Source of the DNA: a virus | Length of the DNA stretch: 64,000 nucleotides | Strand: one strand, 5' to 3' | Virus record (IMG/VR): IMGVR_UViG_3300038299_000184 | Coordinates: 1-64,000 of that record | Part shown: in pieces, positions 1,595 to 14,546 of the stretch | How positions within the stretch are numbered: the first letter of the stretch is position 1 | Layout: each line of letters begins with the position of its first letter | Notes under the pieces: generated by a model | The model's input: the letters and a program-made list of their open reading frames with translations, nothing else | Databases searched by the model: none | What the model was told of the DNA's origin: nothing | Made by a program: the position numbers and the translations under genes

Positions 1595-1650
1595 TTTTAA
1601 GTAAATTGAAATAATTTATGTTTAGGGTTCGATTTATACTAATTAAGTAT

Positions 1651-2364: not shown

Positions 2365-2430
2365 CTCAATTGGTAGAGTGCCATACTTGTAATATGGGAG
2401 TTGTGAGTTCGAATCTCACCGTTAGCTCCA
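2355..2430 (+). tRNA. tRNA-Thr(TGT)
   Basis: GCTGACG/CGTTAGC acceptor, CCATA-CT-TGT-AA-TATGG, CCA; overlaps the HNH stop codon. Confidence 0.93.
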
Positions 2431-2507
2431 TAATTCTATTAAGACACCACTAGTATTAGGATTCGTAATTTATTACGCGAATTAAAACAGACACCATAAT
2501 TAATCTT

Positions 2508-2921
2508 ATGACTAGGGAAGAATTATCTGAGAAAATTAAAGACCATCTTAAAAAGTGGATCGAGGGTGAAAAGGAATTCACTCTGGAATCTGAAGGTGAG
2601 AATAGAATCAACATCTCGTTTAAACTTAAGGATGGTACTAATGGCACCATCGATCTTACCACCACTTATCATTGGCTCAATTTCGAGTTCTTTATGGATG
2701 ACACCACCAATCCTGTAAATACTTTAGAATGGATCATGGAACCTGTAGACTATGAAGAGTTTAGAGTATTTGGGGAACTACTGCCTTATGTAGAGTTCAC
2801 AGCATGGGGTGAAGGTAAAGAGCTAGGTAAGATGGAAACCATCGATGATAAGCCATTGATGCAAGATGAGATGTTTAAAGAGTACCTTAAAGCATTCGAG
2901 TATGTTGATTCAATGTTCTAA
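2508..2921 (+). CDS. hypothetical protein (acidic)
   Basis: 137-aa ORF, TAATTA-N5-ATG start. Confidence 0.75.
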   Translation: MTREELSEKIKDHLKKWIEGEKEFTLESEGENRINISFKLKDGTNGTIDLTTTYHWLNFEFFMDDTTNPVNTLEWIMEPVDYEEFRVFGELLPYVEFTAWGEGKELGKMETIDDKPLMQDEMFKEYLKAFEYVDSMF

Positions 2922-2936
2922 ACCATAAATAAGTAT

Positions 2937-3326
2937 ATGGACTGGGAGAAAACTTTCGAGTCAGCTATCCTCAAGGGGCTGAACTCATACATGAAGACTA
3001 AGAATATAGAGCACGAAGTTCTAGAATCTGATAATGATCTTATTGTAAACATCTATAAAATGGAGAGTGGTGACATAAATATTGTTAATTCATATGGTGA
3101 TCTATTGGTGGAGTATGCTGACCCAGATGCCACACACAGACGTTCTATATTCTTCAACCCCTCCAAGGCTCGTCTGGGTGACTTCGATGTATTCGAGGAC
3201 ATCATACCAGTAGTTAGGATATCCTCATCAATACCTAGTAAAGGTGGCTGGACAAACGAACAGATAGATGTTGACGATTTTAATACCAGTATTCACAACT
3301 GGTTGGATCAATTGGGTCTTTATTAA
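2937..3326 (+). CDS. hypothetical protein
   Basis: 129-aa ORF, TAAATA-N5-ATG start. Confidence 0.75.
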   Translation: MDWEKTFESAILKGLNSYMKTKNIEHEVLESDNDLIVNIYKMESGDINIVNSYGDLLVEYADPDATHRRSIFFNPSKARLGDFDVFEDIIPVVRISSSIPSKGGWTNEQIDVDDFNTSIHNWLDQLGLY

Positions 3327-3332
3327 TTTGAC
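3297..3332 (+). repeat. 36-bp direct repeat, copy 1
   Basis: AACTGGTTGGATCAATTGGGTCTTTATTAATTTGAC; 34/36 identical to 4207-4242. Confidence 0.9.
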
Positions 3333-3363
3333 ACCACCCTGTGGTTTGTGTATCATTGCCCCA

Positions 3364-4200
3364 ATGAGTACATTCAATAAGAAGACAGGTTATAAGATGG
3401 CAACCCGAGAGGTAGGCTATCGTGGGACTAAGTTCTCGCCATACTGCTTCCAAAGACAACTCCGTGATAAAAAGGATGATGGTGTCACCGACACACTAGA
3501 GGAGATGAAAAACTGTGTAGTGAAGCAGATTACATTTAAAGAAGCTCAGAACTTCATCCTAGAATTCGAATGGTTAGGTACTATGGGTACCACAAAATTC
3601 AGCTACGGTGTCTTCACCAATGATAGACTGACCGCTGTGTATTGTTTCGGACTAACCGCTGGCACCGCTGCACTATCCCAAGTATTTGGCGAAGAGAATA
3701 AGAAACGGGGTCTAGTATTAGTACGTGGTGCTTGCGCTCCATGGGCATACAGAAACATGTCTAGCTTTGGTATGGGCAAGGTTTTACCAGCACTACATAA
3801 GGAACGTGACATCGATTATCTAATCGCATACTCCGACCCAGAGGCTGGTGAGATAGGTACAGTATACCAAGCAACCAATTGGAACTTCTATGGTATGACA
3901 GCCCCTGTGAACTATCTAGTTCGCCCAGACGGTAAGCGGTCAGACCCAAAACTGATTTCAAAGTATGCCAAGAAGAAAAACATTACATACGCAGAACAGA
4001 AGCAATTGTTCGTAGACGAAGGTTATACCTTCGAGAGGGGTTCTCCAAAACTTAAATACTTCAAGATCATTGGTAACAAAACCATTCGAAAAGAACTCAC
4101 CAAACAGTTGAAAGTTCCTGTATATAAGTACCTTAAACGTATGGACAACATGGAAGACTTATATGGTGTGTTCAAGGCGCAGATTAAAAATTCAAAATAG
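3364..4200 (+). CDS. Mom-like (GNAT-fold) DNA modification protein
   Basis: LIAYSDPEAGEIGTVYQATNW resembles the Mu Mom-family signature. Confidence 0.65.
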   Translation: MSTFNKKTGYKMATREVGYRGTKFSPYCFQRQLRDKKDDGVTDTLEEMKNCVVKQITFKEAQNFILEFEWLGTMGTTKFSYGVFTNDRLTAVYCFGLTAGTAALSQVFGEENKKRGLVLVRGACAPWAYRNMSSFGMGKVLPALHKERDIDYLIAYSDPEAGEIGTVYQATNWNFYGMTAPVNYLVRPDGKRSDPKLISKYAKKKNITYAEQKQLFVDEGYTFERGSPKLKYFKIIGNKTIRKELTKQLKVPVYKYLKRMDNMEDLYGVFKAQIKNSK

Positions 4201-4206
4201 ATTTGA

Positions 4207-4242
4207 AACTGGTTGGATCAATTAGGTCTTTATTAAGTTGAC
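4207..4242 (+). repeat. 36-bp direct repeat, copy 2
   Basis: AACTGGTTGGATCAATTAGGTCTTTATTAAGTTGAC. Confidence 0.9.
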
Positions 4243-4272
4243 CTAATACCATAAAAATGCATAAATGCACAT

Positions 4273-4641
4273 ATGAACAAATTCGATAAACTAGTACAAC
4301 AAATATTAAACGAGAACACTGACAATGGACTCACCCAGCAACAGCACAAGGCGGTGTCCAAGACTGGGGAACTTTTAGGTCTTGAGTTTGATGATGTACA
4401 GCTCGTCGATAATGGCGAAACTGGTTATGTCCTACACTTATTTAAAGACGGTGAAAAATCTGCGCGGTTTGAGTACGACAAGGTAGATAATGAATGGTTT
4501 GTAAGTCAAGCTGGTGGTAGTGAGTTAAAGGTTGGTAAGATATCCTTTAACGGTGAACTGATCGAGGGCACACGTTACATACCCAACCCAAGATCTGGTA
4601 GGAAGCCTGTAGTGGAAATCAAACCACCCCAGAGGTCTTAA
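4273..4641 (+). CDS. hypothetical protein, possible internal head protein
   Basis: N-terminus MNKFDKLVQQILNE resembles a T4-type capsid targeting leader. Confidence 0.6.
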   Translation: MNKFDKLVQQILNENTDNGLTQQQHKAVSKTGELLGLEFDDVQLVDNGETGYVLHLFKDGEKSARFEYDKVDNEWFVSQAGGSELKVGKISFNGELIEGTRYIPNPRSGRKPVVEIKPPQRS

Positions 4642-4677
4642 TATACAAATCTACACCTACTTAGTATAATTAATATT

Positions 4678-5286
4678 ATGAGTAAATTTGGTTATATAAT
4701 AGAGAAAATCAACAGTATGGTGTCAACAGATTCCCGAATCGATGACATAATGGCTTTAGATGGGCAGGATAGGTTGGACTTACTAGGTAAAACCGAATTT
4801 GCTATTATTACATCCGACAGGGCAGATGGTCACAATGCAGCCATTGGGCAGGAAATTAAGGTAGCTAGAGATGGAGGGTCTAAGGAAGAGATGGAGGCTG
4901 TATTGGCTAGAAACAAGGTCGAGGTAGATGAAGGTAATGCTGCTATGAGGCCAAGTCTTGAAGACCGATTAAAATCCAGTGGGTTCAGTTATATGAAGGT
5001 AGTGGGTAAATTCCCCGAAGATATTACTGGTGTTAGTACGACTGAGGTATCATTTCTAGTATTACTAGACGAAGATAATATACAAGGTGGTATTGATACA
5101 TTAAATAAAATTGCACAAGGTTATAAGCAAGACTCTATTTTAGTGGGTAGTGGTACACAGACACCACGCTACAGTTTTGTTTCAGAAACCAAAATTGACC
5201 CTCTGGGTAGTACATTAGTGCCAGCAACATCTAGTGATGCTTACTCCACAATGTTCAAAGATGGGCAGTACTTCACAGTGTCTTAA
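4678..5286 (+). CDS. hypothetical phage protein
   Basis: 202-aa ORF, TAATTA-N5-ATG start. Confidence 0.75.
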   Translation: MSKFGYIIEKINSMVSTDSRIDDIMALDGQDRLDLLGKTEFAIITSDRADGHNAAIGQEIKVARDGGSKEEMEAVLARNKVEVDEGNAAMRPSLEDRLKSSGFSYMKVVGKFPEDITGVSTTEVSFLVLLDEDNIQGGIDTLNKIAQGYKQDSILVGSGTQTPRYSFVSETKIDPLGSTLVPATSSDAYSTMFKDGQYFTVS

Positions 5287-5341
5287 AAAAATATATCACA
5301 AAAAGCTTTGACACATTGCCACTATTTTGTATGGTCACCAC

Positions 5342-5923
5342 ATGACACAAACACTATACACCACGGACGACCTAAAAGCAGTAGTAGCAACTCTTAATAA
5401 GAAGGGTGCTGCATATAAGGAACAACCTAAGATCCGACTAATCAAAAGAATTCTAAAATCTTGGGGTAGGAGTATCGGACATAGTTTAAAGTTGGTTAAT
5501 GGTACCGCTAATACAATTTCTGGTAAGGTACAGGTTGAGCTAACCATCAACGGGGAATGCAACCGAAGCGATCTAGCATCCATCACCCTTGAGTGGGTTA
5601 AACGAATTCGCGGCTTCAGATTGGATAACCACCCACCAAAGGTTAATACTCGTCATGCTGCGATTACAGCCCAGAGACAGGCCGATCAATTATTTAACGA
5701 GGAGAAATCTAAGTTCGTTACCGTTGTGTTGGAAGCACTAGGTGGTAGTAATGCCACGACAATTGCAGTAGTAGAGTCCATTAAATTTGGACTAGATACT
5801 AATACGACTCTTGCAATCATCGTTGCAAAAAATCGACATAATCAATTGAGGTTACAATTGAAAACTACTCTTGAAGGTTTGAAGCAGGATTGGCATTCGG
5901 ATAATAAATTAAACAATAACTAA
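5342..5923 (+). CDS. hypothetical protein
   Basis: ORF after TTGACA...TATGGT; flanked by the AAAATATATCACAAAAAGCTT repeat. Confidence 0.7.
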   Translation: MTQTLYTTDDLKAVVATLNKKGAAYKEQPKIRLIKRILKSWGRSIGHSLKLVNGTANTISGKVQVELTINGECNRSDLASITLEWVKRIRGFRLDNHPPKVNTRHAAITAQRQADQLFNEEKSKFVTVVLEALGGSNATTIAVVESIKFGLDTNTTLAIIVAKNRHNQLRLQLKTTLEGLKQDWHSDNKLNNN

Positions 5924-5940
5924 AATATATCACAAAAAGC

Positions 5941-5968
5941 TTGCAAACTGGCATTAGGTTTGTATAAT
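5941..5968 (+). promoter_or_regulatory. sigma70-type promoter of tRNA operon 1
   Basis: TTGCAA-N16-TATAAT with A-rich UP element; near-identical to 14065-14092. Confidence 0.8.
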
Positions 5969-5991
5969 TAAAAACATCAGACAATAACACT

Positions 5992-6084
5992 ATGAACTCC
6001 TTTATCAACATTTCACATTCATCTTTCTCAATCTCGGATTGGGCGGTATGTGTGAGTGCGGATACTAAGAGGTCGTGGTTTTAA
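5992..6084 (+). CDS. attenuator leader peptide 1 (MNSFINISHSSFSISDWAVCVSADTKRSWF)
   Basis: 30 codons read directly; 8 Ser, 2 Trp, 1 Cys; lies between promoter and terminator upstream of tRNA-Trp/Ser/Ser/Cys. Confidence 0.8.
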   Translation: MNSFINISHSSFSISDWAVCVSADTKRSWF

Positions 6085-6117
6085 AATTTGAATAACAGAT
6101 AATTAAAATAAGCTACG

Positions 6118-6148
6118 ACCCAATTGGATAACTCCAGTTGGGTTTTTT
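6118..6148 (+). terminator. attenuator terminator 1
   Basis: ACCCAATTGGA-TAAC-TCCAGTTGGGT plus T run; competes with the 6071-6080/6111-6120 helix. Confidence 0.85.
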
Positions 6149-6244
6149 GTTTATAGGGTTTTTGAGGAGGTTACACCCGAAGTAATCGAACGTCCATAAT
6201 GATGGCTTACCTTTAGGGTAAAAGAGAAACACAAACAAACAAAC

Positions 6245-6318
6245 AGGAGTATCGTATAAAGGTTATTACAGTGGTTTCCAAAACCATTTATCTAGATTCA
6301 AGTTCTAGTGCTCCTGCC
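6245..6318 (+). tRNA. tRNA-Trp(CCA)
   Basis: AGGAGTA/TGCTCCT acceptor, GTGGT-TT-CCA-AA-ACCAT. Confidence 0.88.
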
Positions 6319-6323
6319 TTATT

Positions 6324-6408
6324 GGAAGATTCCGTCTACGGTGACAAAGTGGTTTTGAACGCCATGGGTACTGAAAGGTACGGGGTTCGAGTCCTCAATT
6401 TTCCGCCA
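6324..6408 (+). tRNA. tRNA-Ser(TGA)
   Basis: GTGGT-TT-TGA-AC-GCCAT, long variable arm, G73, CCA. Confidence 0.9.
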
Positions 6409-6414
6409 TTTAAC

Positions 6415-6501
6415 GGGGTGTTGGCTGAGTGGTTTAAGGTACCGCATTGGAAATGCGGCAGGGTCTAAACGCCCTCACTGGTTCAAATCCAGTACACCCT
6501 T
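6415..6501 (+). tRNA. tRNA-Ser(GGA)
   Basis: CCGCA-TT-GGA-AA-TGCGG, long variable arm, GTTCAAATCC. Confidence 0.9.
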
Positions 6502-6509
6502 CATAACAA

Positions 6510-6582
6510 GATGCCGTGGTAGAGCGGTAATACATGGGTTTGCAAAACCCTCAACACTGGTTCGAGTCCAGTCGGCATCTCC
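6510..6582 (+). tRNA. tRNA-Cys(GCA)
   Basis: GATGCCG/CGGCATC acceptor, U73, loop TT-GCA-AA. Confidence 0.9.
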
Positions 6583-6852
6583 TTATTCAACCACAATAGT
6601 CAGATCACCTTGATCATGAGAGATTGTCTTAACGGCAACCCCTTCAATGATAACTTGTGGTAATAGAAGATCTGGAATATCTTCTGTGTTGTTGTTAGAT
6701 CTAGTCTTAGCAACTTCCAATTCCTTTTCGGTGAACAGTAGACTAACTACTTCACCGTTTTCATAAACATGAACATGAACGTATTCTGCTGTAGCCGAGT
6801 TATATCTTTTGGTATTCTCAACACGCAGTAGACTCCCTAGTTTAGATTTCAT
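6583..6852 (-). CDS. hypothetical protein antisense within the tRNA cluster
   Basis: 89-aa ORF with TAATTA-N5-ATG on the minus strand. Confidence 0.7.
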   Translation of the reverse strand: MKSKLGSLLRVENTKRYNSATAEYVHVHVYENGEVVSLLFTEKELEVAKTRSNNNTEDIPDLLLPQVIIEGVAVKTISHDQGDLTIVVE

Positions 6853-6874
6853 GTTATTAATTAGTCAATTAAAT

Positions 6875-6951
6875 GCAAGATTAGCTCAGTCGGTAGAGCT
6901 GGGGGTTTACATCCCCTGTAAGCATAGGTTCAAGCCCTATATCTTGTACCA
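6875..6951 (+). tRNA. tRNA-Val(TAC)
   Basis: GCAAGAT/ATCTTGT, GGGGG-TT-TAC-AT-CCCCT, CCA. Confidence 0.9.
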
Positions 6952-7024
6952 TAGTTCGCTACCAGTGGTAGATGGATGTATAAAGGGCTTCCCGTTGTCC
7001 CAGCATAGCAAAACAACGGTATAT

Positions 7025-7108
7025 GGGGTGCATGGCAACATGGGTGTTGCATTTCCTTTGCAAGGAAGCATTCAAGTTAAAAGAGTTCGATTCTCTTGTG
7101 CTCCACCA
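7025..7108 (+). tRNA. tRNA-Ala(TGC), enlarged variable region
   Basis: G3:U70 acceptor pair, loop TT-TGC-AA, CCA. Confidence 0.85.
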
Positions 7109-7274
7109 TATGATAGAAGAAAATGAAGTAGAAGAAATAGAAATGTTCCCAGAGCACCAGTTCCCCGATTTTAGGGAGGCTGATTATGATCAGTGGGCTG
7201 CGGAATTTAAACACCACCTTGAAGATTTATTAGAATAGTTATTTACAATATCTGCATTTTTGTTATACACATTC

Positions 7275-7559
7275 ATGGTAAGAATTTTTACGACAATCAC
7301 TAATGACTCATTACAGGTAACAGTAACAGACTCATTGAAGAATACTGAAGAGATCCACACTATCAAAGATGTTGAATCTTATAGGAATTTTATCAAGGTA
7401 ATCGAGAGCGGTAAAGTTCCTTGGTTTGATAGGAATACACGAATTTCTAATTCGTCATCAATTAACTGGGCATCTAGTGAAACAGATAACCAGTTCGTGA
7501 TTGATATTGTCGATTATATTTTCCACGATGGAGAACGACCAAAAACTTTAAAGGGTTAG
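7275..7559 (+). CDS. hypothetical protein
   Basis: ORF track. Confidence 0.6.
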   Translation: MVRIFTTITNDSLQVTVTDSLKNTEEIHTIKDVESYRNFIKVIESGKVPWFDRNTRISNSSSINWASSETDNQFVIDIVDYIFHDGERPKTLKG

Positions 7560-7575
7560 CAACATAATTAGTTAT

Positions 7576-8193
7576 ATGTCTTTTAAGGATTTTTATAGTG
7601 AGTTTGTAATCGAGAGTTACGAAGGTGAGCAAACCTCCGTACACCCAGTCATCAAGGTTGGTGTGGGTCATGAAGATTATATGAAGTGGGCATTTAAGAT
7701 CGATAATAGGTTCGAAGATAATGCAGCCACTATCCATATGAAGAATGTTAGTATGGTACTGAACCATAATGCTATTGATAAAACTATCAGAAACACTGAT
7801 ATGAGTAAAACAAGAGCTGGTTCCAAACAACCCATCATCCTTCTTAAAGGTGAAATTGTTGCAGTAGATTTTGATGAGTCGGAGTTGCGTTTAAAACTCC
7901 AAGAGAGTTCATGGGAACCTGTTACATATAACCCCCACAAGAACCCCGAAGTGGTTTTGTCTAATACATTACCTAGCTGGTGGTGTACAGAGCCTAGGCT
8001 GGGTGATAATAGAGGTAAACCCGATTTCATCAAGAATCGCCTAGATGCTATGGTTGAGTATGGTGAACACCCCGATCAACCAACACAAGTCACACATAAA
8101 GATGGAAGTGGTAGATCAATATTCACAGCTAGGGAGGTACTACTAAAGCAGCACAGAGTGTGTAATGAAGATTATATGTGGATGTTGAAATAA
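7576..8193 (+). CDS. hypothetical protein, possible internal head protein
   Basis: MSFKDFYSEFVIES leader resembles the T4 CTS; TAATTA-N5-ATG. Confidence 0.65.
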   Translation: MSFKDFYSEFVIESYEGEQTSVHPVIKVGVGHEDYMKWAFKIDNRFEDNAATIHMKNVSMVLNHNAIDKTIRNTDMSKTRAGSKQPIILLKGEIVAVDFDESELRLKLQESSWEPVTYNPHKNPEVVLSNTLPSWWCTEPRLGDNRGKPDFIKNRLDAMVEYGEHPDQPTQVTHKDGSGRSIFTAREVLLKQHRVCNEDYMWMLK

Positions 8194-8231
8194 GATGTTG
8201 ACACACCACGGTGGTGATGTATAACCACCAC

Positions 8232-8498
8232 ATGAGAGCAATCATTTACGACAACCAAGTTTATAAGTCCGAACAATCTGGCACTGTAGTACTAGCCAAG
8301 GATAGACTATATGAGAGTGGTACGTTTGGTGCCATCGCCCTAAGTGGGGATGATGAGGGTAAATATCTTGAGGGTTGGTTCAGTGGTGATTTCACACCTA
8401 TTACTGACACCGACGAGGAAAGTCATTATGTAGAATGGGCACGGGAAAACAATTTCAGTGAGTACTCAACTCGTGACCCTAAACTCGGAAACAAATAA
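8232..8498 (+). CDS. hypothetical protein
   Basis: ATG 6 nt after TTGACA-N16-TATAAC. Confidence 0.65.
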   Translation: MRAIIYDNQVYKSEQSGTVVLAKDRLYESGTFGAIALSGDDEGKYLEGWFSGDFTPITDTDEESHYVEWARENNFSEYSTRDPKLGNK

Positions 8499-8514
8499 AC
8501 AAACACAACTTGTT

Positions 8515-9081
8515 ATGAAGAACGCAAAACCAAAAGATCCTTATAAAGTCGTTGAAGCTGCTTTGGATTATATCAGTCTCAATCTTTTAGAACCAACGCT
8601 ATTGAGAAACGTAAGATTAGATCCGAATAGTTTACGTAAACACGCTAAGATTCGTTTCGAAGGATTGCCGTTCCGAGATTATGACGATTTGACATTTCCT
8701 CATGGCGTAGAGGAGTGGTTGGATTATGTGTTCGGGGATGGCATGACTTATTCGGCTTTTTTAGCTGGGGAAGCTGCTAAAAAATCCATTATGGCTAGTG
8801 TTAAGCTACCAAGATGGACGGATATTTACAGACGGATGAAAGTGGAGAAACAGCAAGCTATCTACAACAAACTATCTTTCGGGGAAAGGTTTAAAGTCTC
8901 ATTCTCTCCTAGCAAGATCGAAATTCGTGAGGTAGTTTCAAAAGACGATAGGTCAAAATACATGCTTTGGGGAGCGAAGGAACGAAGGTATCTCGATAAG
9001 CATAACGACCATATAGACAAGTACTGGATCGACGAAGATGGAAATTACAAATACGATTTCGAATGCATACCTTATCTATAA
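8515..9081 (+). CDS. hypothetical protein
   Basis: ORF track, internal ATG. Confidence 0.7.
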   Translation: MKNAKPKDPYKVVEAALDYISLNLLEPTLLRNVRLDPNSLRKHAKIRFEGLPFRDYDDLTFPHGVEEWLDYVFGDGMTYSAFLAGEAAKKSIMASVKLPRWTDIYRRMKVEKQQAIYNKLSFGERFKVSFSPSKIEIREVVSKDDRSKYMLWGAKERRYLDKHNDHIDKYWIDEDGNYKYDFECIPYL

Positions 9082-9130
9082 ACATAAGGAAGCTGCTGAC
9101 GAAGCAGGGTAAACATATTAAATAATTTAC

Positions 9131-9205
9131 GGGACGTTCGTATAACGGCTATTACACGGGATTGTCTATCCTGCTATGAGGTTTCGATTACCTCACGTCT
9201 CGCCA
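9131..9205 (+). tRNA. tRNA-Asp(GTC)
   Basis: CGGGA-TT-GTC-TA-TCCTG, G73, CCA. Confidence 0.9.
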
Positions 9206-9206
9206 T

Positions 9207-9293
9207 TTTAAGTATTGTGGAAACACAGAGTATCGGTTGTACCGACTGAACATAGTAATGACTCTAGCACTAGACAGGTGTTACTTAAAACCC
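9207..9293 (+). ncRNA. tRNA-shaped RNA with expanded anticodon arm
   Basis: TTTAAGT/ACTTAAA stem, TGTG-GAAA-CACA arm, GAGT/ACTC enclosing TCGGT-TGT-ACCGA, 5-bp/7-nt arm AGCAC-TAGACAG-GTGTT. Confidence 0.5.
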
Positions 9294-9296
9294 TAT

Positions 9297-9371
9297 CGGA
9301 GGGTAGCTGAGACGGATTAGCATAGGTCTGAAAAACCTAAGAGGTGGGATCGTTACCCACACCTCCGACCA
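9297..9371 (+). tRNA. tRNA-Phe(GAA)
   Basis: TAGGT-CT-GAA-AA-ACCTA, CCA. Confidence 0.88.
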
Positions 9372-9415
9372 TTTAATAATTGACACCACTGGTTATTTAT
9401 TATACCACTAGGTAT

Positions 9416-9781
9416 ATGAGCAACCACGAAAGAGTCACAGACCTCACAGCTAGGTCTAAAGTAAAGCGAGGTACTACAGTTGATCTGATCAGCTCTAGGA
9501 GACGCAAGCCAGCCACTGATCTAATCGGTGCTAATAAAACACAAGACCGTAAAGATTCTTGTAAGAAACATTTCATGATGAGATACCGAGAACGGTATGG
9601 ATTCATTTGTAAGCATTTCATGTATTCAGAAATTTTGAAACTTGTTAGATCATCTAAACCATATGAACATTGCGTGAAGATGAATCGACACAAGTATGAG
9701 ATCGACCATAGTGGAACGACACTAAATATAGTTTATGATGATAGGTTGAACGTGCTGGTCACACTATTACCACCAAGGTAG
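9416..9781 (+). CDS. hypothetical basic protein
   Basis: ORF track; C-terminal VYD...LVTLLP. Confidence 0.6.
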   Translation: MSNHERVTDLTARSKVKRGTTVDLISSRRRKPATDLIGANKTQDRKDSCKKHFMMRYRERYGFICKHFMYSEILKLVRSSKPYEHCVKMNRHKYEIDHSGTTLNIVYDDRLNVLVTLLPPR

Positions 9782-9796
9782 TAGAGATACTAAAAT

Positions 9797-9873
9797 GGTG
9801 TAGGTAGCATAATTGGCAATGCCCTCGGTTGTGATCCGAGAAAATGCGGGATCATACCCCGTCCTATACCCCA
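9797..9873 (+). tRNA. tRNA-His(GTG) with encoded G-1:C73
   Basis: CTCGG-TT-GTG-AT-CCGAG; G precedes GTGTAGG and C73 precedes CCA. Confidence 0.9.
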
Positions 9874-9876
9874 TAT

Positions 9877-9951
9877 TGTTGTGTAGCTCAGAGGAAGAGC
9901 GCAGCTTTGATAAAGCTGAGGTCGGGATTTCAAAATTCCCCACAACAACCA
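9877..9951 (+). tRNA. tRNA-Ile(GAT)
   Basis: CAGCT-TT-GAT-AA-AGCTG, CCA. Confidence 0.9.
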
Positions 9952-9989
9952 TTTATTGACACCAATGGTATTCATTACTAAGTATACCC

Positions 9990-10235
9990 ATGTCAACACG
10001 AGCAGATAGAATATCTGACCACTACTCTATAGTATTCAAATATGGGTCAAAGTTTAAGACCATTATAACACCAGAGTCTGGTTGTGGGATATGCCCAAGC
10101 GAGGCATGGGTGTTTGGTGGGCCTATGACCAAGTGTGATAAAGAAATTAGTATGTCCTGTGAGCCTGTTATACAGTCACTAGATATACCAGTACACAGAA
10201 TAAAATCAACGGAAGATTTACTAGACAGGGTCTAG
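9990..10235 (+). CDS. hypothetical protein
   Basis: 81-aa ORF, TAAGTA-N5-ATG; 3' end overlaps tRNA-Ser. Confidence 0.5.
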   Translation: MSTRADRISDHYSIVFKYGSKFKTIITPESGCGICPSEAWVFGGPMTKCDKEISMSCEPVIQSLDIPVHRIKSTEDLLDRV

Positions 10236-10298
10236 GCTGGATTGCTAATCCAAGTACACCACTAGTGGTGTGGGGATCGTGCCCTCAATCTTCTGCCA
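10211..10298 (+). tRNA. tRNA-Ser(GCT)
   Basis: GGAAGAT/ATCTTCT, loop TT-GCT-AA, long variable arm, G73, CCA. Confidence 0.88.
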
Positions 10299-10343
10299 TA
10301 TTGTATGTGTTTCTCTTACACCATTCTATAATTATATAGAACT

Positions 10344-11090
10344 GTGACTATGGAAATAACATTTTTAACAACGTCAACAATTTCAGATATTCAAGTAACA
10401 CAATCTAGGTGCATTAAAAAATTCTTCCCAGATAGTGAACATGTGATTATTGATGGTAATAAGAGCTTCCCAAAGGTTTGGTACGAATGGCTGGATGTAG
10501 TAAAGGACAGCGAGTCGGATTGGTTTATACACATCGATGAAGATTGTTTCATAACATCCCCAGATGAAATATTAAAGCTGATCGAGGAGATGAAATCTGG
10601 TGGTTATGACATCGCAGGTTCGCCAGATGGTTATAATGAATTTTACCGACATGGTAATCACATGGCTATTAATTCATTTTTTATGGTATTGAATAAATCA
10701 GTAATTGATACATGGCACAATCGAACAGGTAATTGTCCTCAGTTTAAAAAGGATTGGATTGAAGAATATCCGTTTGAAAGGCACGGTGATTCGCATTTTA
10801 TATATAATGTTAAATTATTAGATGGGTACCATACATGGGTACCATATTCAGAACCATACTACGGATTTCTATGGGTGTTGAAGCAGAAGGGTTTGAAATT
10901 TAAATATATAGAACCTGTGTTCAATCCAACCTTCAGTACCACAGATCTGTTAAATGGTACAGTTAAACATATGTGGTTCCAACGCCAACGGAAGAGTGTT
11001 AAAGTAGTATCAGCAGCACATACAATATCTAATAAGGATAGATTTGATGGTATGTTATTATATATAAACCACCTTCTACTAAGTAATTAA
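10344..11090 (+). CDS. GT-A fold glycosyltransferase-like protein
   Basis: DWFIHIDEDCF DxD motif. Confidence 0.6.
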   Translation: MTMEITFLTTSTISDIQVTQSRCIKKFFPDSEHVIIDGNKSFPKVWYEWLDVVKDSESDWFIHIDEDCFITSPDEILKLIEEMKSGGYDIAGSPDGYNEFYRHGNHMAINSFFMVLNKSVIDTWHNRTGNCPQFKKDWIEEYPFERHGDSHFIYNVKLLDGYHTWVPYSEPYYGFLWVLKQKGLKFKYIEPVFNPTFSTTDLLNGTVKHMWFQRQRKSVKVVSAAHTISNKDRFDGMLLYINHLLLSN

Positions 11091-11094
11091 ATGT

Positions 11095-11241
11095 ATGAGT
11101 GAAGAAAAGAAAACACCATTCAAGCGAGGAGAAGTTAGGCGACGACAAGATGCCATCAAGTTTGAACCACCACTATACCCTAGACCTTCCAAGGACTGGG
11201 ACTTAAAGAAAGGTCAAAGAAAACTTGACTCTGGTAACTAG
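11095..11241 (+). CDS. small basic hypothetical protein (48 aa)
   Basis: TAATTA-N5-ATG; reads MSEEKKTPFKRGEVRRRQ... Confidence 0.45.
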   Translation: MSEEKKTPFKRGEVRRRQDAIKFEPPLYPRPSKDWDLKKGQRKLDSGN

Positions 11242-11272
11242 TGGTGTATTATGAATACATAATTAAATTTAT

Positions 11273-11616
11273 GGGGCTGATTTGGTTTCGACTTTAATCA
11301 ATAATTACCCAGTATCAACCAAGGTGGTTCCAAGACCTGCTGATAAGATCAACCAAAATGACGAAAATACAGTCGCTCTAGCTGCCTAGGCAGTGAGCCA
11401 CACAGGACTTCTATCAACCCTGTATGGCTAAGAGTAATAAGATAGTGCATTCGGTGTAAGACATCGACAGCTACCCATACAGGCTGTTAAATACAGGATG
11501 GTGAGTCAGATATCATACACTGACTAGTGTGAACAACGAAATGGTTCAAAAATGGTTGTAGACGTACTGAGATACGATGATTAAAACAAGCAGTTCAACT
11601 CTGCACAGCTCCACCA
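11273..11616 (+). ncRNA. ssrA: tmRNA
   Basis: 5' GGGGCTGA...TTCGAC; 3' T arm plus CAGCTCCACCA; tag frame ...NDENTVALAA-TAG ending at 11389; promoter TTGACT-N16-TATTAT. Confidence 0.95.
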
Positions 11617-11653
11617 TAATAGCCCACCTTGTAATGAGGTGGGCTATTATTTA
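11616..11653 (+). terminator. hairpin/terminator after tmRNA
   Basis: ATAATAGCCCACCT...AGGTGGGCTATTAT. Confidence 0.75.
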
Positions 11654-11698
11654 ATACAAGGATGCCCTAATTAGTAGTATAACCCCAACTATACTACT

Positions 11699-11944
11699 AT
11701 GAAAACACTACTAGGAAGATTTAAAAACTGGAAGACCACACTACTTGGTGCCCTTGCCGCTGCACTCATTGCTGCTGGTGGTTCACTATCAGAGGGTCAA
11801 GTAGATTACAAGATCATACTTGCTGCCGCTGGTGCTGCCGCGATTGGCTCTGTACTCAAAGACCCTGCTAAGAAAGTAAAACCTGTTAAGGGTATCGCTA
11901 AAGCCATTGTGGTTGATGAGGAAACTGGGGAGGATGTTGGGTAA
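11699..11944 (+). CDS. putative holin-like membrane protein
   Basis: Two hydrophobic helices, charged C-terminus. Confidence 0.5.
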   Translation: MKTLLGRFKNWKTTLLGALAAALIAAGGSLSEGQVDYKIILAAAGAAAIGSVLKDPAKKVKPVKGIAKAIVVDEETGEDVG

Positions 11945-12198
11945 TGACCGTATTTGGTGCACTTAAAATATTTGATATAATCAAGTTGGCACTGATGATT
12001 TGGTCTGCCACGAAACTACAAGCCCTACTAAAAAGATCTTATGAAATTGATAACGAAATTGATAATGCTGCCATTGATGCTACTAAGTCTGATATGCTGC
12101 GGATCAAGCGGCTTGCCGACGAAAAAGCAAGAATTGCTAAATACCTCAGCGTTGCTGACTCCGTACTCCGTGAAGTCCCTAAAGGGAAAGGAGTATAA
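11944..12198 (+). CDS. putative i-spanin-like protein
   Basis: N-terminal hydrophobic segment plus helical charged domain; overlapped by a lipoprotein ORF. Confidence 0.45.
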   Translation: MTVFGALKIFDIIKLALMIWSATKLQALLKRSYEIDNEIDNAAIDATKSDMLRIKRLADEKARIAKYLSVADSVLREVPKGKGV

Positions 12199-12298
12199 GT
12201 TTGAACAAGGTGTCTGGATAGGCACTGGTGAATCACTATACTCACAGGCTGCACTATCTGATGCGGTTTCCTCTGGCAGGGTACGCAACGGTAAATAA
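12041..12298 (+). CDS. putative o-spanin-like lipoprotein
   Basis: Signal peptide with lipobox-like LSLICC; overlaps the previous ORF in another frame. Confidence 0.45.
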   Translation: MKLITKLIMLPLMLLSLICCGSSGLPTKKQELLNTSALLTPYSVKSLKGKEYKFEQGVWIGTGESLYSQAALSDAVSSGRVRNGK

Positions 12299-12305
12299 TT
12301 TAATC

Positions 12306-12335
12306 AAGGGCTGTACTTAATTGTACAGCCTTTTT
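12306..12335 (+). terminator. intrinsic terminator
   Basis: GGCTGTAC-TTAATT-GTACAGCC-TTTTT. Confidence 0.8.
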
Positions 12336-12384
12336 ATTTGAAAACAATAGTTGACCTAAATGTTATATCGTGTATGGTCAACCC

Positions 12385-12624
12385 ATGTCAGAGAACATTC
12401 ACTATCGAGGTTATAATATCCAAACCATCACAGAGACCCTTGGGCTTAAAGGCCGAACCATCACACCATACAAATCCTTCGTCGTGAAGGGTGCCAAGGT
12501 TGTAGGCTCAGAGAGTTTCGCACCATTGTACAGAACCACTCGGGGTGGCTACCCTAAGTCGGCAGCACTCCGTGACATCAAGAACGATATCGACTGGTAT
12601 CAGAAACAGGGGTGGATCGCTTAA
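12385..12624 (+). CDS. hypothetical protein
   Basis: ATG 6 nt after TTGACC...TATGGT. Confidence 0.65.
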   Translation: MSENIHYRGYNIQTITETLGLKGRTITPYKSFVVKGAKVVGSESFAPLYRTTRGGYPKSAALRDIKNDIDWYQKQGWIA

Positions 12625-12858
12625 TATGGATTTATTCTGGAAATCATGGGTGGTTATTGTTGCCCTTTGGGTGGGGTTGTTCCTATTCTCAGACTGTGAC
12701 CCACCACACAAAATTGGGTCACAGACTGAAATGTTGCATGATGCAAGGGGTAAGACTGTAAAGGAATGTAGTGTTGACGGTTTGATTTTCACAATCAAAT
12801 TCACTGATGATACATCACTTAACTCAAGAATGGACAAACACTCACCAAAGGTATACTA

Positions 12859-13089
12859 ATGAAAGAATTTGAAGTATGGTCTGCGGGTTACCTTGCCACA
12901 GGTATGGAAGGTAGACCTATGAAGGCAAGGTGTGAAGGTACATGGGAGGGTAAAGACTTCCCAGAGGCTTGCCAGAACTGGGCAAACTCTTTGAAGCAAC
13001 CAGAGCTTTACACCCCCGAGACTAACCGTTATTGGGGTATTCATTTATTTGATAATGAGGTTGATGCCCGTAAACAATTTGGATATTAA
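12859..13089 (+). CDS. hypothetical protein
   Basis: 76-aa ORF. Confidence 0.6.
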   Translation: MKEFEVWSAGYLATGMEGRPMKARCEGTWEGKDFPEACQNWANSLKQPELYTPETNRYWGIHLFDNEVDARKQFGY

Positions 13090-13140
13090 ATAAAACTTAC
13101 AGAAAGGTGTTGACCTAATTCAGATTTATGGTAGTATTTA

Positions 13141-13368
13141 TACATCGGAAGGAACAAAGGGTTTGGCGACCAAGAGTGACTGAAGATAAATCGGGTTTCG
13201 TTGATATCGCCATTGATACGAATCAGTATGTTAGTACAAGTCCAATCAGAAAAGGTCGCAGGTTCGAATCCTGTCTAATCATCCACAGTGGTGTTTAGTA
13301 GCTCAGTTGGTAGAGCAGTTTTGTATAAAGACTAGGAGGGTGCAATTCCTTCCATACATTCCGATGTA
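13141..13368 (+). ncRNA. ncRNA containing a circularly permuted tRNA domain (YrlA/Y-RNA-like architecture)
   Basis: Closing stem TACATCGGAA/TTCCGATGTA; T arm (13258-13274) precedes D arm (13301-13316); own promoter TTGACC-N16-TAGTAT. Confidence 0.75.
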
Positions 13369-13382
13369 AAATAAATAGGATG

Positions 13383-13470
13383 GATTGATATGACAGACAA
13401 CTTGACGGGGTCGCGACCCCTCGGGAGAGGGGATATCAATTTAGACTAGTGGTGTATATCGTCAGTCTGA
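13383..13470 (+). ncRNA. putative structured RNA
   Basis: GATTGATAT/ATATCAATT stem with GGGGTCGCGACCCC and CCCCTC-GGGA-GAGGGG; TAGACT/AGTCTG hairpin. Confidence 0.4.
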
Positions 13471-13496
13471 AAAAATACTGAACTATCCACTACGAA

Positions 13497-13581
13497 GAAC
13501 ATAACAGTGGCTGGGTATAGCATTCCACAATGTGCTAGGGGTGCCCCCTAGAGATAACCAACTCAGTCACTGTTGTGGTTC
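13497..13581 (+). ncRNA. putative structured RNA (long closing helix)
   Basis: ATAACAGTGGCTGGGT/ACTCAGTCACTGTTGT 16-bp helix with G:U pairs; inner hairpins. Confidence 0.5.
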
Positions 13582-13646
13582 AAAACAAATTTTCCACATA
13601 ATTCAAATAAAACTTGAATACACTAAGTGGTGTGTATAAGTATAAT

Positions 13647-13724
13647 TGCGGGGTGGACAAGTCAGGTTAAGTCACTGGTCTCATAAGTCAGTCATCGAAT
13701 GTTCGAATCATTCTCCCGCAACCA
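13647..13724 (+). tRNA. tRNA-Met(CAT) (initiator versus elongator uncertain)
   Basis: TGCGGGG acceptor is fMet-like, but the anticodon stem CTGGT/GTCAG lacks three G:C pairs; CCA. Confidence 0.85.
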
Positions 13725-13730
13725 TATAAT

Positions 13731-14042
13731 ATGAACCTAAACGAACAAATCAAAGCCGACTACGAACAGTTGAAAACAACTAAACGTACTTGGCGGTTGG
13801 ATGAGACCAATTGTAAAGTGACAACCATACTCAATAGTATGGAAACCCACGAGCAAGATGCAGAGTTTGAGGTAGATGCTATGACAGGGGCAATGCTAGA
13901 ATGTAGTATGCACTTTAAAGGAACTCTTGACGAAGTGGTTCGAGATAAATCAATCCTAATTGGGTCATTAGTAGCTGGAACTAAGAAGGCACTAGTATTT
14001 GCCACAGACGATAGCACCACAAACGTGGTCAAAATAAAATAA
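13731..14042 (+). CDS. hypothetical protein
   Basis: 103-aa ORF. Confidence 0.65.
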   Translation: MNLNEQIKADYEQLKTTKRTWRLDETNCKVTTILNSMETHEQDAEFEVDAMTGAMLECSMHFKGTLDEVVRDKSILIGSLVAGTKKALVFATDDSTTNVVKIK

Positions 14043-14064
14043 TTCAAAATATATCAAATAAAAC

Positions 14065-14092
14065 TTGCAAACTGTAATAGGTTTACTATAAT
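14065..14092 (+). promoter_or_regulatory. sigma70-type promoter of tRNA operon 2
   Basis: TTGCAA-N16-TATAAT, homologous to 5941-5968. Confidence 0.8.
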
Positions 14093-14102
14093 TAAAAGCG
14101 TA

Positions 14103-14177
14103 ATGAAGAACAACACACAACAACAGTATCAACCTCAACCGTATCCTATGGACTCGGGTGGTTCTATTGTTGTCTAG
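14103..14177 (+). CDS. attenuator leader peptide 2 (MKNNTQQQYQPQPYPMDSGGSIVV)
   Basis: Codons 6-15 are exclusively Gln/Tyr/Pro; precedes a terminator and tRNA-Tyr/Pro/Gln. Confidence 0.85.
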   Translation: MKNNTQQQYQPQPYPMDSGGSIVV

Positions 14178-14204
14178 TAAGTTACATTACAGAAACAAAT
14201 GTTC

Positions 14205-14237
14205 AACCCGAATCCTTAATTGGTTTCGGGTTTTTTT
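14205..14237 (+). terminator. attenuator terminator 2
   Basis: AACCCGAATCC-TTAATT-GGTTTCGGGTT plus T run; 5' arm also complementary to GGACTCGGGT (14150-14159). Confidence 0.87.
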
Positions 14238-14264
14238 GTGTCCAGTAAAGGTCAAAACAAATAT

Positions 14265-14349
14265 GGGTGTGTTGGGCAATTGGTTGCCTAGCGGATTGTA
14301 ACTCCGTGGGCGAAAGTCGTTGTAGGTTCGAGTCCTACCATACCCACCA
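14265..14349 (+). tRNA. tRNA-Tyr(GTA)
   Basis: GCGGA-TT-GTA-AC-TCCGT, long variable arm, CCA. Confidence 0.92.
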
Positions 14350-14352
14350 TAT

Positions 14353-14426
14353 CGATACATAGCTCAACGGTAGAGTACCACCTAATGGGGGTGGAGATTG
14401 CGGTTCAATTCCGTGTGTATCGACCA
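14353..14426 (+). tRNA. tRNA with aberrant anticodon loop (Pro-like body)
   Basis: Intact cloverleaf with C1:G72, A73 and CCA; loop TAATGGG lacks U33. Confidence 0.65.
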
Positions 14427-14465
14427 TATCAAAAATCAAGCTGTAGAGATAAGCAGCAAATATAT

Positions 14466-14543: not shown

Positions 14544-14546
14544 TAT

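What the first reader, a model, noticed from the sequence alone, without database searches (positions are those of the whole stretch)
5941..10298. Attenuator 1: Ser/Trp/Cys leader whose composition mirrors the whole 4-kb tRNA block
Seen: leader 5992-6084 has 8 Ser, 2 Trp and 1 Cys codons. GGTCGTGGTT (6071-6080, the last codons) pairs 10/10 with AGCTACGACC (6111-6120, counting G:U), overlapping the terminator base. GATTGGG (6037-6043) can also pair with the terminator arm. The first four tRNAs are Trp, Ser(TGA), Ser(GGA) and Cys. Of codons 3-24, 21 of 22 encode S, F, I, H, D, W, A, V or C, which is exactly the tRNA set found from 6245 to 10298 (only Asn is unmatched). Inference: one leader surveys nine tRNA families. 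Caveat: internal sigma70-like promoters (near 8198 and 9380) could also feed the distal tRNAs.
Basis: partly seen in the sequence, partly recalled or inferred. Interest (0 to 1): 0.88.

Follow-up and report, generated by a model that had tools for sequence, protein, structure and literature searches.

The report
Candidate leader-peptide attenuator before phage tRNAs
In an uncultured marine phage, a 30-codon mini-gene sits between a promoter and a strong transcription stop just ahead of a row of tRNA genes and is spelled almost only in the amino acids those tRNAs carry, so it may act as a trp-operon-style gauge that lets the tRNAs be made when ribosomes slow down, though nothing here shows it working.

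Summary
A promoter (5941-5968), a 30-codon ORF (5992-6084) and the best intrinsic terminator in 16 kb (6117-6144 plus a T run) lie 95 nt ahead of tRNA-Trp, Ser(UGA), Ser(GGA) and Cys. No other promoter hit lies between.

- **Codon match:** 24 of 29 codons after the ATG belong to the nine tRNA families found from 6245 to 10298. Only 2 of 644 small ORFs of this genome reach that share, the leader included.
- **Alternative pairing:** Together they cover the terminator's 5' arm, and 15 of 2000 shuffles did as well.
- **Second cassette:** one at 14065-14240 shares the promoter and the design. Its ortholog in the only relative found lost all three Pro codons and has no tRNA-Pro call downstream.

My best reading is a ribosome-read attenuator gating at least the four nearest tRNAs (about 0.48). 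The claim that one leader controls all nine families over 4 kb is weaker. Three internal promoters and a minus-strand gene intervene.

No ortholog of this leader, no natural variation in it and no RNA data could be found. This scan has noted the same idea before on other phage DNA. Six literature searches found no paper on it.

The parts
5941..5968 (+). Sigma-70-like promoter TTGCAA-16-TATAAT; likely start of transcription near 5975
   Evidence: 10 of 12 matches. It is one of only two TTGCAA-N14-18-TATAAT sites on either strand of the 127.8-kb record; the other heads the second cassette at 14065. The two align through TATAATTAAAA and diverge after it.
5992..6084 (+). 30-codon leader ORF MNSFINISHSSFSISDWAVCVSADTKRSWF; the proposed gauge of decoding speed
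   Evidence: There is no Shine-Dalgarno word, but the phage's long ORFs mostly lack one too. A matrix built from the -20..-1 context of 99 long-ORF starts scores this ATG above 39% of those starts and in the top 11% of 5124 ATGs. Translation itself is not shown.
6027..6043 (+). Tip hairpin CTCAATC / GATTGGG (regions 1 and 2a); 2a can instead pair with CCCAATT at 6119-6125
   Evidence: Fold, duplex. In the stall model, a ribosome with codons 8-10 in the A site frees 2a and the terminator's 5' arm becomes 0.80-0.90 paired.
6071..6084 (+). Region 2b: the last codons and the stop codon; pairs with 6106-6120 as a hairpin of about -15 kcal/mol
   Evidence: A ribosome at codon 24 or later, or at the stop, covers it, and pairing of the terminator's 5' arm falls to 0.27 (trailing ribosomes blocked).
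6117..6150 (+). Intrinsic terminator: 12-bp stem, loop of 4, T run
   Evidence: The fold of 5975-6155 has z = -5.97.
6245..6582 (+). tRNA-Trp(CCA) 6245-6318, Ser(UGA) 6324-6408, Ser(GGA) 6415-6502 and Cys(GCA) 6510-6582, spaced 5-7 nt apart; the unit most likely gated
   Evidence: No promoter-like hit on the + strand starts after 6081 and before 7208. The 6151-6244 spacer is unstructured, z = 0.26.
6583..6852 (-). Conserved 89-aa gene on the opposite strand, between tRNA-Cys and tRNA-Val
   Evidence: It is 65% identical in protein to the relative's 88-aa gene and 73% in DNA.
6875..7108 (+). tRNA-Val(UAC) 6875-6951 and an atypical tRNA-Ala(UGC) at about 7025-7108
   Evidence: In my own register, read, the Ala tRNA has G3:U70, A73 and an encoded CCA. 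The population variant T7052C turns a U:G pair into C:G in that fold's anticodon stem.
8198..8225 (+). Internal promoter TTGACA-16-TATAAC, ahead of ORFs that end before tRNA-Asp and tRNA-Phe
9131..9371 (+). tRNA-Asp(GUC) 9131-9205 and tRNA-Phe(GAA) 9297-9371
9380..9406 (+). Internal promoter TTGACA-15-TATACC, ahead of an ORF ending at 9781, then tRNA-His and tRNA-Ile
9798..9951 (+). tRNA-His(GUG) 9798-9873 and tRNA-Ile(GAU) 9877-9951
9957..9988 (+). Third promoter-like site (TTGACA ... TATACC), ahead of ORF 9990-10235 and tRNA-Ser(GCU)
   Evidence: Read by eye. Neither nor the regex lists it.
10211..10298 (+). tRNA-Ser(GCU), cognate to the leader's single AGT codon
   Evidence: relaxed ARAGORN only.
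14065..14240 (+). Paralogous cassette: the same promoter type, the ORF MKNNTQQQYQPQPYPMDSGGSIVV and a terminator, ahead of tRNA-Tyr, His(AUG), Pro and Gln
   Evidence: (duplex -14.7; 1 of 2000 shuffles as good).

Best explanation
The stretch 5941-6150 is a ribosome-read (leader-peptide) transcription attenuator that gates phage tRNA genes. At the least it gates Trp, Ser(UGA), Ser(GGA) and Cys at 6245-6582.

Proposed working, all of it inferred:
1. RNA polymerase starts near 5975 and a ribosome loads at AUG 5992.
2. If the codons are decoded fast, the ribosome reaches the last codons and the stop (6071-6084). It covers that segment, the terminator's 5' arm stays free, the 12-bp terminator forms, and a transcript of about 175 nt is released.
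3. If the ribosome is held up earlier in the ORF, segment 6071-6084 pairs with 6106-6120. That takes the G+C-rich base of the terminator.
4. A stall at codons 8-10 (Ser-His-Ser, inside a run of 6 Ser in 8 codons) also frees GAUUGGG (6037-6043) to pair with CCCAAUU (6119-6125). Nearly the whole 5' arm is then sequestered and polymerase runs on into the tRNA genes.

The result would be tRNA made on demand, with negative feedback once the phage tRNAs are plentiful.

Shown here: the parts, their positions, the codon statistics and the pairing potential. Inferred: translation of the ORF, any switching, and how far read-through reaches.
For: - **Architecture.** Promoter, ORF, terminator and four tightly spaced tRNA genes, with no promoter-like hit between the terminator and 7208. 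The tRNAs therefore need read-through of a strong terminator.
- **Codon match.** 24 of 29 codons lie in the nine families, reached by 2 of 644 small ORFs including itself, and by 1 of 644 at codon level. S+W+C is 11 of 29 (6 of 644). All nine families are represented (3 of 291). F, I, H and D take 9 of the 14 remaining codons (1 of 291).
- **Specificity.** Leader 1 has 0 Tyr, Pro or Gln codons. Leader 2 has 10 of 23 and sits before the Tyr, Pro and Gln tRNAs (Fisher p = 1.3e-5).
- **Pairing.** Complementarity to the terminator arm exceeds chance: 15 of 2000 shuffles as good for 6111-6128, 86 of 2000 for 6117-6128. In the stall model, pairing of the 5' arm is 0.85-0.90 at codons 8-10, 0.34-0.67 elsewhere in codons 1-23, and 0.27 from codon 24 to the stop (trailing ribosomes blocked).
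- **Start context.** It is ordinary for this phage, whose genes mostly lack Shine-Dalgarno words.
- **Second cassette.** It has the same promoter type (the only two such sites in 127.8 kb) and the same ORF-within-a-long-hairpin design.
- **Co-variation.** The second cassette's ortholog in the relative keeps the frame through a one-codon deletion and carries four synonymous changes. It has lost all three Pro codons and gained two Tyr. Neither ARAGORN nor Rfam calls a tRNA-Pro or His(AUG) downstream, only Gln plus a Tyr-like tRNA that I read by eye.
Against: - No ortholog of this leader was found, so neither the ORF nor the helices have comparative support.
- The four metagenome runs laid on it show no differences in 5548-6115, so natural variation offers no test.
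- At equilibrium the terminator wins. Stalls at codons 1-8 open only its lowest pairs (lowest pair probability 0.014-0.10) while the mean over all 12 pairs stays at 0.70-0.79.
- The Trp and Cys codons lie where a stalled ribosome would itself cover GAUUGGG. In the model they give only the weaker effect.
- The whole ORF lies in a long hairpin (z = -3.26), as a non-coding structured RNA also would.
- Not every tRNA of this phage has such a leader. tRNA-Met at 13647 follows a promoter directly.
Confidence: 0.48

Rival explanations
1. The ORF is incidental. The region is a structured non-coding leader or small RNA followed by a terminator. The terminator is either simply leaky or is overcome by a phage or host antitermination factor. 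It would then act as a timing gate for delayed-early tRNA expression.
For: - The leader alone folds as one long hairpin with z = -3.26, and the whole unit with z = -5.97.
- The tRNA region of phage T5 is annotated with several 'stable RNA with unknown functions', one of them directly after a promoter and ahead of tRNAs.
- At equilibrium the terminator is hardly displaced.
- There is no evidence of translation.
- From recall, not checked here: T4 tRNA genes are delayed-early, and its tRNA region also encodes stable RNAs.
Against: - This reading leaves the codon match to chance, at roughly 0.002-0.01, and in two cassettes of one genome with opposite compositions.
- It does not explain why the second cassette's ortholog keeps its frame and changes its Pro codons together with the tRNA content.
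- No Rfam family matches 5941-6244 at E <= 1.
Confidence: 0.3
2. The terminator belongs to the neighbouring genes. It would end the upstream operon, whose last gene stops at 5923, and might act in both directions for the minus-strand gene at 6583-6852. The promoter just happens to lie upstream of it, and the tRNAs are fed by unrecognised phage-specific promoters.
For: - In the relative, the matching junction beside the 88-aa minus-strand gene holds a hairpin terminator between convergent genes and no tRNAs.
- The phage has a recurrent (T)ATAATTA/CTAATTA motif just upstream of many genes that the sigma-70 scan does not model. One copy lies 11 nt ahead of tRNA-Val.
Against: - The terminator lies about 195 nt after the upstream stop codon and about 440 nt, across four tRNA genes, from the end of the minus-strand gene.
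- The promoter-ORF-terminator-tRNA order recurs at 14065 and is conserved there in the relative.
- No TAATTA motif lies between 6150 and 6244.
Confidence: 0.1
3. The ORF 5992-6084 encodes a small functional peptide, with its own promoter and terminator, that has nothing to do with tRNA supply.
For: It is an open frame with a typical start context, a promoter and a terminator. Phage genomes hold many tiny genes.
Against: - The protein search around it returned only the window's own neighbouring protein, and no relatives of the region were found.
- The composition tracks the downstream tRNAs.
- The paralogous peptide is poorly conserved in sequence in the relative: about nine replacements in 24 codons, by my count.
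Confidence: 0.07

Closest known systems
Multivalent leader-peptide transcription attenuators of enterobacterial amino-acid operons (thrL sensing Thr and Ile; the ilvGMEDA leader sensing Ile, Leu and Val; also trpL, hisL, pheL). Description recalled; pheL seen only in a search listing.
   Same: A promoter-proximal mini-ORF rich in the codons whose supply matters. An intrinsic terminator follows, with upstream segments that can pair with its 5' arm instead. The stop codon lies inside one competing segment, and more than one amino acid is read by a single leader.
   Different: The genes behind it are tRNA genes, not biosynthetic enzymes, so the signal would be tRNA supply or decoding speed itself. 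As many as nine families are represented rather than one to three. The sense codons are spread out apart from one Ser run. The antiterminator overlaps the terminator only in part. No Rfam leader family matches.
Stress-induced tRNA array (trn operon) of Anabaena sp. PCC 7120 (PMC8421152, passages read; PMC10272220, abstract read)
   Same: An accessory set of tRNA genes that is kept off and is switched on when translation is impaired.
   Different: Control there acts at the promoter, through direct repeats bound by the repressor TrcR. The words 'leader peptide', 'attenuat' and 'terminator' each occur 0 times in PMC8421152. That system is cellular, not viral.
T-box riboswitches (recalled)
   Same: A transcription terminator/antiterminator switch that reads the state of a tRNA.
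   Different: A T-box binds uncharged tRNA directly, without a ribosome, and it regulates synthetase and amino-acid genes. No T-box match appears in 1-20000 at E <= 1.
Stable small RNAs in phage tRNA regions (T5 RNAI, RNAIII, RNAIV, RNA2H and RNAX as annotated in AY543070; T4 species 1 and 2 recalled)
   Same: Structured RNAs of about 100-170 nt that lie among phage tRNA genes, in one case directly after a promoter and ahead of tRNAs.
   Different: T5 RNA2H has no ORF across it and no terminator is annotated after it. I saw no codon mirroring in the ten small T5 ORFs I translated, though that was a look by eye and not a test.

Membership tests
Ribosome-mediated (leader-peptide) transcription attenuators | A short ORF close to the promoter that is translated | tested here: inconclusive
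   The ORF 5992-6084 exists and its start context is typical for this phage. Translation could not be tested, because no RNA runs are listed.
Ribosome-mediated (leader-peptide) transcription attenuators | The ORF is enriched in codons tied to the regulated product | tested here: met
   24 of 29 codons lie in the nine downstream tRNA families (2 of 644 small ORFs reach this). S+W+C is 11 of 29 (6 of 644).
Ribosome-mediated (leader-peptide) transcription attenuators | An intrinsic terminator between the leader ORF and the regulated genes, with no promoter after it | tested here: met
   The terminator is at 6117-6144 plus a T run. No promoter-like hit on the + strand starts after 6081 and before 7208.
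Ribosome-mediated (leader-peptide) transcription attenuators | An antiterminator helix that excludes the terminator and depends on where the ribosome sits | tested here: inconclusive
   The complementarity is real (15 of 2000 and 86 of 2000 shuffles as good) and the stall model gives a switch from 0.90 to 0.27. At equilibrium, however, only the lowest terminator pairs open. There is no covariation to support the helices.
Ribosome-mediated (leader-peptide) transcription attenuators | The ORF and the alternative helices are conserved in relatives | tested here: inconclusive
   No ortholog of this leader was found. The paralogous cassette is conserved in the one relative.
Ribosome-mediated (leader-peptide) transcription attenuators | The regulated genes are amino-acid biosynthesis, transport or synthetase genes | tested here: not met
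   The genes behind it are tRNA genes. This is why I call it a variant rather than a member of a described family.
Rfam leader families (Trp, His, Leu and Thr leaders and the like) and T-box | A match to the family's covariance model | tested here: not met
   The scan of 1-20000 at E <= 1 gave 21 matches. None lies in 5941-6244 and none is a leader or T-box family.
Stable small RNAs of phage tRNA regions | Accumulates as a discrete stable RNA and needs no translation | not testable with these tools
   No RNA run holds the stretch. Only the strong fold is known.

The most novel reading that the evidence does not exclude
This phage runs a modular 'tRNA on demand' system. Each cassette is a tiny translated test gene written in the codons of the tRNA genes behind it. 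Cassette 1 would be a nine-way multivalent gauge whose read-through feeds the whole 6.2-10.3 kb block on top of the internal promoters. Because it reads decoding speed itself, it would also detect loss of host tRNAs to anticodon nucleases and answer with the phage's own replacements.
Probability: 0.2. Interest if true: 0.85.

Novelty: new variant of a known kind. Interest (0 to 1): 0.64.

Why it matters
Leader-peptide attenuation is a textbook mechanism, but I know it only for amino-acid-related operons. If it also gates tRNA genes, phages would have a direct feedback loop between decoding speed and tRNA supply.

That bears on two questions: why phages carry tRNAs at all, and how they respond to hosts that destroy tRNAs as a defence.

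It would also give a simple sequence signature for finding regulated tRNA operons in metagenomes: promoter, codon-matched mini-ORF, terminator, tRNAs. The cassette is small enough to test in a cell-free transcription-translation system.

Six literature searches found no paper describing this control. Earlier notes of this scan report the same pattern in other phage genomes. Those notes are not independent evidence.

Tried and rejected
**Searches for relatives of this leader (all empty or uninformative)**
- Megablast of 5300-10400 against GenBank phages found no match.
- blastn of 5925-6600 hit 6 Vibrio phage records, all only on the tRNA-Ser part.
- IMG/VR scans with the upstream protein and with protein 7576-8193 found nothing.
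- IMG/VR scans with the terminase and the 89-aa protein alignment found one and the same relative.
- IMG/VR scans with a terminator pattern and a tRNA-Trp pattern found nothing.
- The JGI metagenome scan with the 89-aa alignment found none.
- A 19-nt terminator word hit 18 metagenome stretches, all with unrelated context.
- An IMG/VR pattern from the second cassette found the same relative only.
- The protein database holds the upstream protein on 4 contigs, the longest 231,440 nt.

**Expression.** No RNA holder was listed among the 24 runs. This says nothing either way.

**Natural variation.** Contigs of 4 runs laid on 5300-14700 show a single difference, T7052C. The leader has none where it is covered (5548-6115).

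**Other checks**
- T-box or known leader families: no Rfam match.
- My recollection that old phage T5 papers discussed small ORFs tied to neighbouring tRNAs could not be confirmed in the papers searched and read. The ten small T5 ORFs I translated show no obvious mirroring.
- The absence of a Shine-Dalgarno sequence is not an argument against translation, because the phage's long ORFs mostly lack one.
- The leader-2 lines used wrong coordinates (a frame error) and are void. One search has the correct ones.
- Supplementary files of papers were not opened.

Full report
**Where the window lies.** The window is the first 64 kb of a 127,787-nt IMG/VR virus record, estimated 44% complete. Its terminase is at most about 31% identical to those of T4-like phages; all 2581 matching records are under 60%. 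The 24 public runs listed as holding at least part of 5300-10400 are mostly seawater or marine metagenomes. The phage is therefore uncultured, marine, large and only distantly T4-like. No close cultured relative exists in the GenBank phage set.

**The observation.**
- The promoter TTGCAA-16-TATAAT lies at 5941-5968.
- The terminator at 6117-6144 (12 pairs, loop of 4, T run) heads the terminator list for 1-16000.
- Between them lies one ATG-ORF, 5992-6084, encoding MNSFINISHSSFSISDWAVCVSADTKRSWF.
- Ninety-five unstructured nucleotides later (z = 0.26) come four tRNA genes spaced 5-7 nt apart: Trp, Ser(UGA), Ser(GGA) and Cys.
- Further downstream are Val(UAC), an atypical Ala(UGC), Asp, Phe, His, Ile(GAU) and Ser(GCU).
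- Ser(UGA) and Ser(GCU) need a relaxed ARAGORN threshold.
- ARAGORN calls the Ala gene Gly(TCC) with a poor fold. Rfam's tRNA model aligns its anticodon loop as UUUGCAA. In the register I read, it has G3:U70, A73 and an encoded CCA.

**Is the codon match more than chance?**
- Of the 29 codons after the ATG, 24 belong to the nine tRNA families of 6245-10298. All 24 are also readable by the actual anticodons under standard wobble.
- Among 644 ATG-ORFs of 20-45 codons from both strands of the record, 2 reach that share, the leader included. At codon level, 1 does.
- None of 2398 windows of 29 residues from the 99 long ORFs reaches 24. So does only 1 of 20000 stop-free mononucleotide shuffles.
- For the four nearest tRNAs alone, S+W+C is 11 of 29. 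That is reached by 6 of 644 small ORFs and by 76 of 20000 shuffles.
- All nine families are represented, as in 3 of 291 ORFs of 25-36 codons.
- F, I, H and D fill 9 of the 14 codons not taken by S, W, C, V and A, as in 1 of 291.
- The block end and the codon span were chosen after the fact, and the first stage scanned very many windows. These numbers are upper bounds on significance, but the effect is clear.

**A second cassette and the only relative.**
- The record has just two TTGCAA-N14-18-TATAAT sites on either strand. The second, at 14065, shares the promoter region through TATAATTAAAA with the first.
- It heads the ORF MKNNTQQQYQPQPYPMDSGGSIVV and a terminator, directly ahead of tRNA-Tyr, His(AUG), Pro and Gln.
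- Ten of its 23 codons are Y, H, P or Q, reached by 10 of 382 small ORFs. Leader 1 has no Y, P or Q at all (Fisher p = 1.3e-5).
- Both ORFs sit inside a long hairpin that pairs the start region with the stop region (z = -3.26 and -3.41).
- The single relative found is a 61.7-kb IMG/VR contig with 84% terminase identity. It keeps cassette 2 with the ORF MKTYTQQYQYQSYLMDAGSAVVV.
- That ORF has one in-frame codon deletion and four synonymous changes. All three Pro codons are replaced and there are two more Tyr (the counts are mine).
- Downstream in the relative, ARAGORN and Rfam call only tRNA-Gln. By eye I also read a Tyr(GUA)-like tRNA that neither tool calls.
- This is one comparison only, but it is the co-variation the hypothesis predicts.

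**Cassette 1 has no such test.** At the matching site beside the conserved minus-strand 89-aa gene (65% protein identity), the relative has unrelated upstream genes and a plain hairpin terminator. It has neither the leader nor the four tRNAs. That fits gain or loss of leader and tRNAs as one unit, but it is not a test.

**Structure and mechanism.**
- The terminator's 5' arm and the six bases before it (6111-6128) can be fully paired by two leader segments, 6034-6045 and 6073-6080. The duplex energy is -17.6 kcal/mol, matched by 15 of 2000 shuffles. The 12-nt arm alone gives -12.6 kcal/mol, matched by 86 of 2000.
- I folded the transcript up to the terminator loop with a 30-nt ribosome footprint made unpairable. 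With trailing ribosomes also blocked, the 5' arm is:
 - 0.85-0.90 paired when codons 8-10 are in the A site;
 - 0.34-0.67 paired for other positions up to codon 23;
 - 0.27 paired from codon 24 to the stop.
- A ribosome that finishes the ORF therefore clears the way for the terminator, and a ribosome held up earlier does not. This is the geometry of classical attenuators.
- At equilibrium on the full transcript, stalls at codons 1-8 open only the lowest terminator pairs (lowest pair probability 0.014-0.10, mean over 12 pairs 0.70-0.79).
- Any antitermination must therefore rest on two things. The pairing must form first during transcription, and the G+C-rich stem base next to the T run must matter for termination. 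I infer both and show neither.

**Can the ORF be translated?** It has no Shine-Dalgarno word, but the phage's 99 long ORFs mostly lack one too. Their starts sit in A/T-rich contexts, often with (T)ATAATTA or CTAATTA 5-8 nt upstream. A matrix built from those contexts puts ATG 5992 above 39% of real starts and in the top 11% of all 5124 ATGs.

**How far does control reach?**
- No promoter-like hit on the + strand starts after 6081 and before 7208. The four proximal tRNAs therefore depend on reading through the terminator.
- Beyond them the picture changes. A conserved gene on the other strand fills 6583-6852, and a TAATTA motif lies 11 nt before tRNA-Val.
- TTGACA-type promoters at 8198, 9380 and (by eye) 9957 precede protein genes that run into Asp/Phe, His/Ile and Ser(GCU).
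- No convincing intrinsic terminator follows until 12306, so read-through could in principle reach 10.3 kb. The distal tRNAs do not need it.
- The enrichment of F, I, H and D codons is real and is not explained by a unit limited to four tRNAs. It is the best argument for the wider reading, which I put at about 0.2.

**Rivals.**
- A non-coding structured leader or small RNA with a leaky or factor-controlled terminator fits the strong fold. It has precedent in the 'stable RNAs of unknown function' annotated among T5 tRNA genes. It leaves the two codon matches and the co-variation unexplained. I give it 0.3.
- A terminator that really serves the neighbouring genes gets 0.1.
- An unrelated small-peptide gene gets 0.07.

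**Comparison with what is known.**
- The unit works like the multivalent leader-peptide attenuators of amino-acid operons. It is not a member of any described family. No Rfam leader or T-box model matches, and the regulated genes are tRNAs.
- The nearest published case of an accessory tRNA operon that responds to impaired translation is the Anabaena trn array. That array is controlled at its promoter by the repressor TrcR (PMC10272220, abstract; PMC8421152, passages).
- Six full-text searches found no paper on leader-peptide attenuation of tRNA genes. The library lacks most subscription journals and I opened no supplements.
- Earlier AI notes of this scan describe the same idea in several other phage genomes and for cassette 2 of this genome. 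One of them was later priced at 30 in 100 for the bold reading. I used those notes as leads only.

**Verdict.** The most likely explanation is a leader-peptide attenuator gating at least Trp, Ser, Ser and Cys (0.48). It is a new variant of a known kind of control, of real interest, and it still rests on computation alone.

Noticed in passing
whole record; e.g. window 7565, 10329, 40683, 16920: The phage's long ORFs mostly lack a Shine-Dalgarno word. Many ATGs are preceded at 5-8 nt by (T)ATAATTA or CTAATTA, and one copy lies 11 nt before tRNA-Val (6858). This suggests a phage-specific promoter element giving leaderless or near-leaderless mRNAs rather than a ribosome-binding site.
   Followed up: partly
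window 8198, 9380, 9957, 13614; 20 regex hits on the + strand of the record: A family of early-type promoters, TTGACA followed by CCAC...GGTG-like words and TATAAC/TATACC, often only 6-11 nt ahead of an ATG.
   Followed up: partly
window 11273-11616: A phage-encoded tmRNA: Rfam RF00023 at 53.3 bits (cut-off 47), and ARAGORN calls a permuted tmRNA with the tag ALAA*.
   Followed up: no
window 7025-7108: An atypical tRNA-Ala(UGC) with an 11-nt variable region. ARAGORN miscalls it Gly(TCC). A population variant, T7052C, is seen in two runs and turns a U:G pair into C:G in the Ala fold's anticodon stem.
   Followed up: partly
window 13250-13368: A weak YrlA-like Rfam hit (33.3 bits, below the cut-off). 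Many metagenome contigs join backwards across 13317 to 13254 with anticodon-arm-like inserts. That is what ordinary tRNAs would give if this element is a circularly permuted tRNA, as another first-stage note proposes.
   Followed up: no
window 14353-14426: A tRNA-His with the anticodon ATG (A34), inside the second cassette's tRNA row. It is absent from the relative.
   Followed up: no
L002 6165-6255: The relative's first tRNA after its cassette-2 terminator looks like a Tyr(GUA) tRNA with a tiny D arm and a long variable arm. Neither ARAGORN nor Rfam calls it.
   Followed up: partly
window 4678-5286: The protein matches the S-adenosylmethionine lyase family (Pfam PF23780, E = 6.9e-9). It is a likely anti-restriction function, two genes upstream of the leader.
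   Followed up: no
window 6098-6107: A second ATAATTAAAA word, like the one in the promoter at 5964-5973, sits just before the terminator. Its meaning is unknown.
   Followed up: no
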